This document shows positions 3,100 through 3,156 of a stretch of DNA of 5,793 bases, piece after piece (the first letter of the stretch is position 1; every line of letters starts with the position of its first letter). The stretch is from assembly GCF_003334255.1 (NCBI RefSeq), contig NZ_QOWU01000103.1, one strand, 5' to 3'. The position numbers were made by a program, and so were the translations under genes. This stretch comes from Escherichia coli. GTDB lineage: Bacteria; Pseudomonadota; Gammaproteobacteria; Enterobacterales; Enterobacteriaceae. Below the pieces are notes generated by a model. The model did no database searches, had not been told where the DNA came from, and saw only the letters and a list, made by a program, of their open reading frames with translations.

Positions 3100-3156
3100 T
3101 GTTAAGTAACTCATGCCGTCTTATGACTAAGGCTGCATGAGTATAAAAACGGCGTT

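What the first reader, a model, noticed from the sequence alone, without database searches (positions are those of the whole stretch)
3100..3156. Hairpin between the convergent cargo genes without a U-tract
An 8-bp inverted repeat (ACTCATGC at 3109-3116, GCATGAGT at 3135-3142) with an 18-nt loop lies in the 57-bp gap between the convergent ends of the 238-aa gene and the LysE gene. Neither strand has a convincing U-run after it, so termination here may be weak or factor-dependent, allowing convergent read-through interference.
Basis: seen in the sequence. Interest (0 to 1): 0.2.

Follow-up and report, generated by a model that had tools for sequence, protein, structure and literature searches.

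The report
Tail-less hairpin ending the mob operon
A real but ordinary RNA stem-loop lies between the ends of two converging operons on a small E. coli mobilisable plasmid; it lacks the U-run of a classic terminator and most likely marks and protects transcript 3' ends, a kind of element already well described in E. coli.

Summary
It is larger than described: 14 base pairs around a 4-nt loop (3109-3142), about -17 to -18 kcal/mol on the + strand. It is by far the most stable local fold in the AT-rich half of the plasmid. No U-tract follows it on either strand.

The window is a complete 5.7-kb ColE2-like (Col156/MOBQ42) plasmid. The 238-aa gene is not cargo. It is a MobX-like mobilisation gene 20 nt after mobA, so the hairpin closes the mobA-mobX operon and faces the end of the 316-aa/LysE cargo operon.

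The spacer sits in the longest invariant run (93 nt) between lineages about 9% diverged. Orthologous plasmids carry unrelated hairpins at the same spot, mostly without U-tails. The hairpin stays with the mobX-like gene when LysE is replaced, and is destroyed where that gene is lost.

No compensatory changes exist, since there are only three haplotypes.

Best reading: a 3'-end stem-loop that pauses polymerase and blocks exonucleases, with release by Rho or by head-on polymerase collision. This is an ordinary member of a known kind and of low interest.

The parts
3109..3142 (.). The hairpin. Outer stem 3109-3116/3135-3142 (8 bp), 1x1 mismatch C3117/T3134, inner stem 3118-3123/3128-3133 (6 bp, one G.U on the + strand), loop TGAC 3124-3127.
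   Evidence: (I4). Energies -17.4 (+) and -13.8 (-) kcal/mol. Strongest local fold in the AT-rich region.
3089..3163 (+). Possible outer extension. 3089-3097 pairs with 3155-3163 and 3100-3103 with 3148-3151, so the two stop codons lie in the base of an extended imperfect stem (+ strand only).
   Evidence: 101-nt + strand fold -26.5 kcal/mol, z -4.3. The - strand is much weaker (z -2.1). This is prediction only.
3143..3156 (+). 3' tail on the + strand (ATAAAAACGGCGTT): an A-run, not a U-run.
   Evidence: tail score -1.95, background median.
3093..3108 (-). 3' tail on the - strand (UACUUAACACUAUUU): 3 U in the first 8 nt, marginal.
   Evidence: tail score -2.74.
2383..3099 (+). 238-aa MobX-like gene: N-terminal coiled-coil-like part, a transmembrane segment and a MobX-type C-terminus. 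It is the last gene of the mobA operon and the gene the hairpin travels with.
   Evidence: (BLASTP against pSC101 MobX: 29% over 140 aa, E 6e-13).
1277..2362 (+). mobA, a MOBQ (MOBQ4-type) relaxase and the first gene of the operon that ends at the hairpin.
3157..3729 (-). LysE/RhtB-family exporter gene, whose 3' end converges on the hairpin.
3736..4686 (-). 316-aa gene upstream of LysE in the same operon, with weak CmoA/SAM-methyltransferase-like hits. Together with LysE it forms the real cargo.
2389..3108 (-). C-rich, G-poor RNA made if the LysE transcript reads past the hairpin (C/G at or above 1.0 in 8 of the 9 80-nt windows, 0.81 in one, up to 4.25). This is the composition expected of a Rho-utilisation region.
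   Evidence: Compare Dar & Sorek.

Best explanation
The hairpin is a transcript 3'-end stem-loop. It sits at the end of the mobA-mobX-like mobilisation operon (+ strand) and opposite the end of the 316-aa/LysE cargo operon (- strand). It has no U-tract, so it cannot release RNA polymerase the way a classic intrinsic terminator does. The inferred mechanism has three steps. First, the nascent RNA folds 10 nt (+ strand) or 15 nt (- strand) after the stop codon and pauses the polymerase. Second, release comes from Rho and/or from head-on collision with polymerases from the converging operon. Rho is most plausible on the LysE transcript, whose read-through RNA is C-rich and G-poor. Third, the folded stem blocks 3'-to-5' exonucleases, giving each mRNA a defined, stable end.

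Shown: the structure, its position, the absence of a U-run, conservation of the spacer, its association with the mobX-like gene, and unrelated hairpins at the same position in orthologs.

Inferred: that it is transcribed, that it pauses, terminates or stabilises, and which release route is used.
For: (1) The hairpin is real and far stronger than its AT-rich surroundings.
(2) It lies wholly inside the convergent gap, just beyond both stop codons.
(3) The spacer lies in the longest substitution-free run (3070-3162, 93 nt) of a 2.6-kb comparison with a lineage that differs at 244 positions. The flanking coding sequence shows 4-8 changes per 50 nt.
(4) Function appears conserved while sequence is not. 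A 47%-identical ortholog is followed 9 nt after its stop by an unrelated perfect 20-bp hairpin without a U-tail (L015, z -12). The ECOR24 plasmid homolog has an 11-bp A/T-flanked hairpin (L007). pET09 mobX has a canonical terminator with a T-tail. Only pSC101 has nothing significant.
(5) The hairpin stays with the mobX-like gene when LysE is replaced by a DUF1868 gene (L011). It is destroyed in non-mobilisable plasmids that keep LysE but lost the mob genes (L005/L006).
(6) Two of the three natural substitutions in the stem keep pairing on the + strand: G-C to G.U, and U.G to C-G.
(7) The known E. coli precedents fit. Rho-dependent 3' ends lie just after stable stem-loops without U-runs, with C>G downstream (PMC6061677). 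Hairpin elements between convergent genes position polymerase collisions. C/G is at or above 1.0 in 8 of the 9 80-nt windows downstream on the - strand, peaking at 4.25.
Against: There are no transcript data of any kind. There is no compensatory (two-sided) change, because only three haplotypes exist in about 80 plasmids and contigs. One haplotype breaks a pair (G3115T). LysE persists without the hairpin in four plasmids. On the + strand the downstream RNA is not C-rich (C/G 0.5-1.0 beyond the first 80 nt), so Rho is a poor candidate for the mob transcript. The strand preference is mixed: two haplotypes fold better on the + strand and one on the - strand. An 8-bp inverted repeat alone is within chance for the window. 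The invariance could reflect a recent recombination patch rather than selection, since two other runs of about 90 nt exist.
Confidence: 0.55

Rival explanations
1. No selected function: a fortuitous palindrome in an AT-rich spacer, carried along because these plasmids are recent relatives.
For: Counts of 8-bp inverted repeats in the window equal the shuffle expectation. There is no covariation. One haplotype has a broken pair. The hairpin was lost in the L005/L006 lineages without loss of LysE. Other invariant runs of about 90 nt exist.
Against: The full 14-bp hairpin has z about -3 and is the outlier fold of the AT-rich region. It lies exactly in the convergent gap (P about 0.006 for the 8-bp core alone). 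Independent hairpins occupy the same position in three other mobX-type lineages. The non-coding spacer is more conserved than the flanking codons.
Confidence: 0.2
2. A single-stranded-DNA element used in conjugation. The + strand carries the oriT repeat and nick motif in the R1162 orientation, so it is probably the transferred strand. The hairpin in it could prime complementary-strand synthesis (an ssi site) or serve as a secondary relaxase-binding hairpin.
For: It travels with the mob genes and disappears from non-mobilisable derivatives. It folds as DNA on both strands (-10.5 and -9.7 kcal/mol, z about -3). In the L015/L016 lineage the equivalent hairpin shares the oriT repeat core CGTTTCTC/GAGAAACG, plus TGTGCG and CTCCGCA, with its own oriT (10 shared 6-mers against 0.93 expected, P about 0.002). 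ssi sites are reported for ColE2 (Nomura et al. 1991, cited in PMC6856555).
Against: The window's hairpin shares only 5-mers with its own oriT. No ssi consensus exists to test against. The position immediately after a stop codon, and the canonical terminator at the same place in pET09, point to an RNA role. The G.U pairs favour RNA over DNA.
Confidence: 0.08
3. A recombination or module-junction hotspot: the palindrome marks where cargo is exchanged next to the mob operon.
For: Rearrangement end-points fall in or beside it. Homology of L005/L006 to the LysE module starts at 3123, at the tip of the hairpin. L011 has an 18-nt deletion starting at 3151. The variable slot of the family runs from the mobX-like gene to about 4864-4875.
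Against: Only two events are seen, and both look like ordinary deletions with 2-nt microhomology. There is no recombinase gene. The cer-like XerCD site is elsewhere (5055-5082). There is no resemblance to attC, Xer or oriT sites. LysE remnants persist beyond the hairpin in L011, so the junction is not at the hairpin.
Confidence: 0.07
4. A canonical bidirectional intrinsic (Rho-independent) terminator.
For: The stem, loop and position after both stop codons fit. The - strand tail has a marginal score (-2.74).
Against: The defining U-tract is absent on both strands. The A-run lies 3' of the stem on the + strand, which places the U-run before the stem on the - strand, the wrong side.
Confidence: 0.04

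Closest known systems
Protective 3' stem-loops of Rho-dependent E. coli transcripts (Dar & Sorek 2018, PMC6061677)
   Same: A stable stem-loop just after a gene, of size and energy like an intrinsic terminator, with no U-run and no upstream A-tract. C>G composition lies downstream on the - strand.
   Different: No 3'-end mapping or Rho-inhibition data exist for this plasmid. On the + strand the downstream RNA is not C-rich. The element here is shared by two converging transcripts.
Collision-type bidirectional terminators between convergent gene pairs (Ju et al. 2019; Wang et al. 2022 preprint, 10.1101/2022.10.23.513370)
   Same: A hairpin-encoding element in a short gap between convergent genes that does not look like an intrinsic terminator. 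In that model the hairpin acts as a pause that fixes the collision site.
   Different: It is untested whether both operons are transcribed strongly enough to collide. The plasmid setting and its copy number of about 10 were not part of those studies.
REP elements as 3'UTR terminator/stabiliser hairpins (bioRxiv 10.64898/2026.03.23.713779)
   Same: An extragenic palindrome without a U-tail, proposed to attenuate read-through and stabilise upstream mRNA, including between convergent genes.
   Different: It is not repetitive. The sequence occurs only in this plasmid family and at no chromosomal site in 5,426 E. coli genomes. It has no REP consensus.
Canonical intrinsic terminator after mobX in Erwinia plasmid pET09
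   Same: The same genetic position (just after the mobX stop, facing a convergent gene), with similar stem energy.
   Different: pET09 has the T-rich tail (TTATTTGTTG) and an upstream A-run. The window's hairpin has neither in the right place.

Membership tests
Intrinsic (Rho-independent) terminator | Stable G+C-containing stem with a 3-8 nt loop just downstream of a gene | tested here: met
   14 bp with a 4-nt loop, -17.4 (+) and -13.8 (-) kcal/mol, lying 10 and 15 nt after the two stop codons.
Intrinsic (Rho-independent) terminator | U-rich tract (at least 5 of 8) starting 0-2 nt after the stem | tested here: not met
   + strand AUAAAAAC has 1 U and - strand UACUUAAC has 3 U. Not called by the scan. 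Tail scores are at background level.
Rho-dependent transcript 3'-end stem-loop (Dar & Sorek) | Stable stem-loop not followed by a U-run | tested here: met
.
Rho-dependent transcript 3'-end stem-loop (Dar & Sorek) | C-over-G enrichment (rut-like) downstream of the stem | tested here: inconclusive
   - strand: C/G at or above 1.0 in 8 of 9 80-nt windows, 0.81 in one, up to 4.25. + strand: 1.33 in the first 80 nt, then 0.5-1.0.
Rho-dependent transcript 3'-end stem-loop (Dar & Sorek) | Mapped steady-state 3' end at the stem base, with read-through increased by bicyclomycin | not testable with these tools
   No transcriptome data are available for this plasmid.
Collision-type bidirectional terminator | Convergent gene pair with a hairpin-encoding element in the gap | tested here: met
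Collision-type bidirectional terminator | Overlapping 3' ends of the two transcripts, with termination dependent on convergent transcription and independent of Rho | not testable with these tools
   Needs SEnd-seq or promoter knock-outs.
REP/BIME repetitive extragenic palindromes | Many copies per genome sharing a consensus | tested here: not met
   32 places, all on plasmids of this family, and 0 chromosomal places in 5,426 E. coli genomes.
XerCD (cer/dif-like) site | 11-nt XerC arm, 6-8 nt spacer and 11-nt XerD arm close to consensus | tested here: not met
   The best match in the hairpin region has 10-12 mismatches of 22. The real cer-like site is at 5055-5082 with 1 mismatch.
MOBQ oriT / relaxase-binding hairpin | GTTTCTC..GAGAAAC-type repeat followed by the GTGCG/C nick motif | tested here: not met
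   That motif is at 1215-1250. The hairpin shares only 5-mers with it.
Any curated RNA family (Rfam 15) | Covariance-model match | tested here: not met
   No hit in 3000-3250 even at E<=1.
Single-strand initiation (ssi) site | Hairpin in ssDNA that supports priming in an M13-type assay | not testable with these tools
   It folds as DNA, but there is no sequence consensus to test and function needs an assay.

The most novel reading that the evidence does not exclude
The hairpin, like the unrelated hairpins at the same position in sister MOBQ4 plasmids, is not primarily an RNA element. It is instead a conjugation-related single-stranded-DNA structure placed at the end of the mob operon, either a complementary-strand priming site or a second relaxase-recognised hairpin. 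One sister hairpin (L015/L016) visibly reuses oriT repeat and nick-proximal motifs.
Probability: 0.07. Interest if true: 0.45.

Novelty: new member of a known kind. Interest (0 to 1): 0.12.

Why it matters
It matters little beyond annotation. The work corrects the gene map of a common small E. coli/Salmonella plasmid: the '238-aa cargo gene' is a MobX-like part of the mobilisation operon. It also gives a defined, easily mutated example of a U-less hairpin between convergent operons on a multicopy plasmid. Such a construct could serve as a compact test case for whether these hairpins work through Rho, through polymerase collision or only as exonuclease barriers. The kind of element is already well documented on the chromosome.

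Tried and rejected
- Rfam scan of the whole window at E<=1: nothing at the hairpin.
- Terminator consensus scan: hairpin not called.
- Covariation: only three haplotypes were found among 34 PLSDB plasmids, 30 RefSeq E. coli records and 16 metagenome contigs. Counting pairs gave 0 two-sided changes, indistinguishable from shuffles.
- A covariance model built from the three haplotypes found only itself, the mutilated L005 copy and its own reverse strand. It did not find the L015 or L007 hairpins, so homology between the lineage-specific hairpins could not be shown.
- Xer/cer, integron attC (by eye: GTTAAGT at 3102-3108 fits GTTRRRY, but it is on the wrong side and has no partner RYYYAAC) and oriT-like readings were all rejected.
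- REP or other repeated mobile element: rejected, as there are no chromosomal copies.
- Strand preference from G.U pairs: suggestive in two haplotypes and reversed in the third, so it is not used as a firm argument.
- The L005 junction has two competing alignments. One is a 34-nt deletion (3091-3124) after an exact shared 11-mer AAATATGCCAT. The other is a 5-nt deletion with a diverged left arm. Both destroy the stem, and which is right is unresolved.
- Pfam, NCBIfam, PADLOC and PDB searches for the 238-aa protein gave nothing significant. Only tblastn/phmmer against MobX proteins did.
- A literature search for MobX function returned nothing useful.

Full report
What the window is. The 5,793 bases are one complete circular plasmid of 5,716 bp read with a 77-base overlap. 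It is 100% identical to E. coli JE86-ST05_p5 (NZ_AP022820.1). About 30 near-identical or 91-97% identical plasmids exist in E. coli, Salmonella and Shigella. It has a ColE2-type Rep (PlasmidFinder Col156), a MOBQ relaxase MobA and a divergent small 'TraD'/MobC-like gene. This is the MOBQ42 family described by Garcillan-Barcia et al. 2019 (PMC6856555). The other backbone functions are accounted for elsewhere:
- the ColE2 origin repeats CAGATAACA at 456-481;
- oriT, with a GTTTCTC..GAGAAAC repeat followed by AGTGCGC, at 1215-1250;
- a cer-like XerCD site at 5055-5082;
- the RNAI-type stem-loop upstream of rep at 5147-5208.

Bases 2380-4800 are AT-rich (GC about 0.32, against about 0.5 for the backbone).

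The observation. They lie in the 57-nt gap between the TAG of the 238-aa ORF (3097-3099) and the stop of LysE (3157-3159, minus strand). The supposed 18-nt loop pairs internally. The structure is therefore 8 bp, a 1x1 mismatch and 6 bp around the tetraloop TGAC. The 34-nt hairpin has -17.4 kcal/mol on the + strand and -13.8 on the - strand. Z-scores against dinucleotide shuffles are -3.07 and -2.38. On the + strand an outer stem can also pair the two stop-codon regions (101 nt, -26.5 kcal/mol, z -4.3).

Is it more than chance? The 8-bp core alone is not. The window has three such repeats and shuffles give 2.3 +/- 2.0. One in this particular gap has P about 0.006. The complete hairpin is the clear outlier of the AT-rich region: -18.4 kcal/mol for the best 40-nt window, against -12.9 for the next. 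No U-tract follows it. The consensus scan did not call it, although its stem and loop qualify. A tail score in the TransTermHP style, reconstructed from memory, is at background level for the + strand and only marginal for the - strand. The A-run ATAAAAA lies 3' of the stem on the + strand. On the - strand the U-run therefore precedes the stem, which is the wrong side for termination.

The neighbours. The 238-aa gene is not cargo. Its transmembrane segment and C-terminal domain match proteins annotated as 'mobilization protein MobX' (tblastn). BLASTP against pSC101 MobX gives 29% identity over 140 residues, E 6e-13. An exhaustive phmmer search of 1.8 billion representatives finds MobX-sized proteins at E 1e-12 to 3e-7, and one full-length ortholog at 47% identity (P0017). 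That ortholog lives in minimal 4.5-kb plasmids holding only rep, the MobC-like gene, mobA and itself. In the window the gene starts 20 nt after mobA, behind a GGAGG ribosome-binding site and with no intervening hairpin. The + strand transcript reaching the hairpin is therefore the mobA-mobX-like operon. The true cargo is the minus-strand pair: a 316-aa protein with weak CmoA/SAM-methyltransferase similarity and a LysE/RhtB-family exporter. Comparison with minimal and cargo-swapped relatives places the variable slot between the hairpin and about 4864-4875.

Conservation. Against a lineage differing at 244 positions in 2.6 kb, the longest substitution-free run (93 nt, 3070-3162) contains the whole spacer. 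The neighbouring coding sequence has 4-8 changes per 50 nt. Two other runs of about 90 nt exist, so this is suggestive rather than decisive. Across PLSDB, RefSeq E. coli and a metagenome scan, only three hairpin haplotypes occur:
- the reference;
- C3136T, which turns G-C into G.U on the + strand and into a C.A mismatch on the - strand;
- G3115T plus T3119C, where one change breaks a pair and the other upgrades U.G to C-G.

Counting pairs gives 12 invariant pairs, 2 with one-sided changes and none with two-sided changes. Covariation can therefore neither confirm nor refute the structure. The strand preference is mixed.

Natural rearrangements. In p24A16CRGN010_I (L011), LysE and the 316-aa gene are replaced by a DUF1868 gene. 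The mobX-like gene, the hairpin and about 100 nt of LysE remnant remain. In the non-mobilisable plasmids pLH50-c-F and pMTY9803_Col2 (L005, L006) and two others, LysE remains but the mob genes are gone. There the homology starts at 3123, at the tip of the hairpin, so the left arm is missing and the fold is lost (z about 0). The hairpin thus travels with the mob operon, and LysE does not need it.

Orthologous positions. The 47% ortholog is followed, 9 nt after its stop, by an unrelated perfect 20-bp hairpin with no U-tail. That hairpin has -34 kcal/mol and z -12, and faces a small convergent ORF. The ECOR24 plasmid homolog has an 11-bp hairpin, TTTTGTGCATT..AATGCACAAAA, in a convergent gap. pET09 mobX is followed by a textbook terminator with a T-rich tail. 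pSC101 has nothing significant. Four of five lineages thus put a strong hairpin immediately after this gene. This is the best argument that the position is a functional operon end.

Mechanism. E. coli already offers three documented roles for U-less hairpins at gene ends.
- Rho-terminated transcripts end precisely at such stem-loops, which protect them from PNPase and RNase II, with C>G rut-like sequence downstream (Dar & Sorek 2018).
- Hairpin elements between convergent genes act as pause sites that fix head-on polymerase collisions, which terminate both transcripts without Rho (Wang et al. 2022, summarising Ju et al. 2019).
- REP palindromes act as combined attenuators and stabilisers.

Here the RNA beyond the hairpin on the minus strand is C-rich and G-poor. 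C/G is at or above 1.0 in 8 of the 9 80-nt windows over 700 nt, 0.81 in one, and peaks at 4.25. On the plus strand it is not C-rich. My best reading (confidence 0.55) is a shared 3'-end stem-loop that pauses polymerase and blocks exonucleases. Rho is the likelier release route for the LysE transcript, and collision or read-through for the mob transcript. Everything after 'the RNA can fold here' is inference.

Rivals.
- Chance palindrome with no function: 0.2.
- Conjugation-related ssDNA hairpin (ssi or secondary relaxase site): 0.08. This is raised slightly because the L015/L016 hairpin shares oriT repeat and nick-proximal motifs with its own oriT (P about 0.002). The window's hairpin does not.
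- Recombination or module-junction hotspot: 0.07.
- Canonical intrinsic terminator: 0.04, because its defining U-tract was tested and is absent.

Verdict. The genes were mislabelled, however, and 'weak termination' does not follow from the sequence. This is a new example of a well-known kind of element. Interest is low (0.12).

Noticed in passing
L016 2419-2462 (same as L015 1609-1652), compared with L016 485-565: In the minimal sister plasmids, the perfect 20-bp hairpin after the mobX-like gene (GATATTGTGCGTTTCTCCG-caaa-CGGAGAAACGCACAATATC) shares CGTTTCTC/GAGAAACG, TGTGCG and CTCCGCA with the plasmid's own oriT repeat and nick region. That is 10 shared 6-mers against 0.93 expected (P about 0.002). 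It may be an oriT-derived or relaxase-recognised second hairpin.
   Followed up: partly
window 2383-3099: The '238-aa hypothetical protein' is a MobX-family mobilisation protein with an extra N-terminal part of about 80-130 residues. RefSeq annotates it only as hypothetical. It is much more AT-rich (GC about 0.33) than the mobA it follows.
   Followed up: yes
window 3157-4686 (- strand): The cargo operon occupies the slot where MOBQ42 plasmids usually carry a colicin operon. It encodes a 316-aa protein with only weak CmoA/class-I methyltransferase similarity (E about 1e-6 to 1e-2), followed 6 nt later by a LysE/RhtB-type exporter. It could make and export a small molecule. Its function is unknown.
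   Followed up: partly
L005 3001-3938 and L006 140-1071, against window 3123-3780 and 4640-4914: Four non-mobilisable plasmids of about 5.3 kb keep LysE and the operon's upstream region but have an 860-bp internal deletion of the 316-aa gene (window 3781-4639). LysE is then fused to the same promoter region.
   Followed up: partly
window 5055-5082: A cer-like XerCD site, GGTACGTACAA-GAGGAG-TTATGGTAAAT, with 1 mismatch to the ColE1 cer core arms.
   Followed up: yes
window 5147-5208: A 17-nt inverted repeat (CAAACGCCCCTGAAATT / AATTCAAGGGGCGTGTG) upstream of rep, with a sub-threshold Rfam hit to PK-repBA on the - strand. It is probably the ColE2-type antisense RNAI stem-loop that controls Rep translation.
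   Followed up: no
window 456-481 and 1190-1250: The ColE2-type origin direct repeats CAGATAACA (x2) lie just after rep. In the oriT region there is a perfect 9-bp inverted repeat CATCCCTGA/TCAGGGATG, followed by GTTTCTC..GAGAAAC and AGTGCGC (an R1162/pSC101-like nick motif).
   Followed up: partly
L007 3013-3299 (ECOR24 plasmid RCS90_pII): The short MobX-like gene there carries an in-frame TAG (..ITRCG*YQKPC..), so it is probably a pseudogene. The hairpin after it is nevertheless intact.
   Followed up: no
window 3078-3105 (- strand): A promoter-like match, TTAACA-16-TATTTT, overlaps the left flank of the hairpin and points into the antisense of the mobX-like gene. The total number of such matches in the window equals the shuffle expectation, so it is probably chance.
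   Followed up: no
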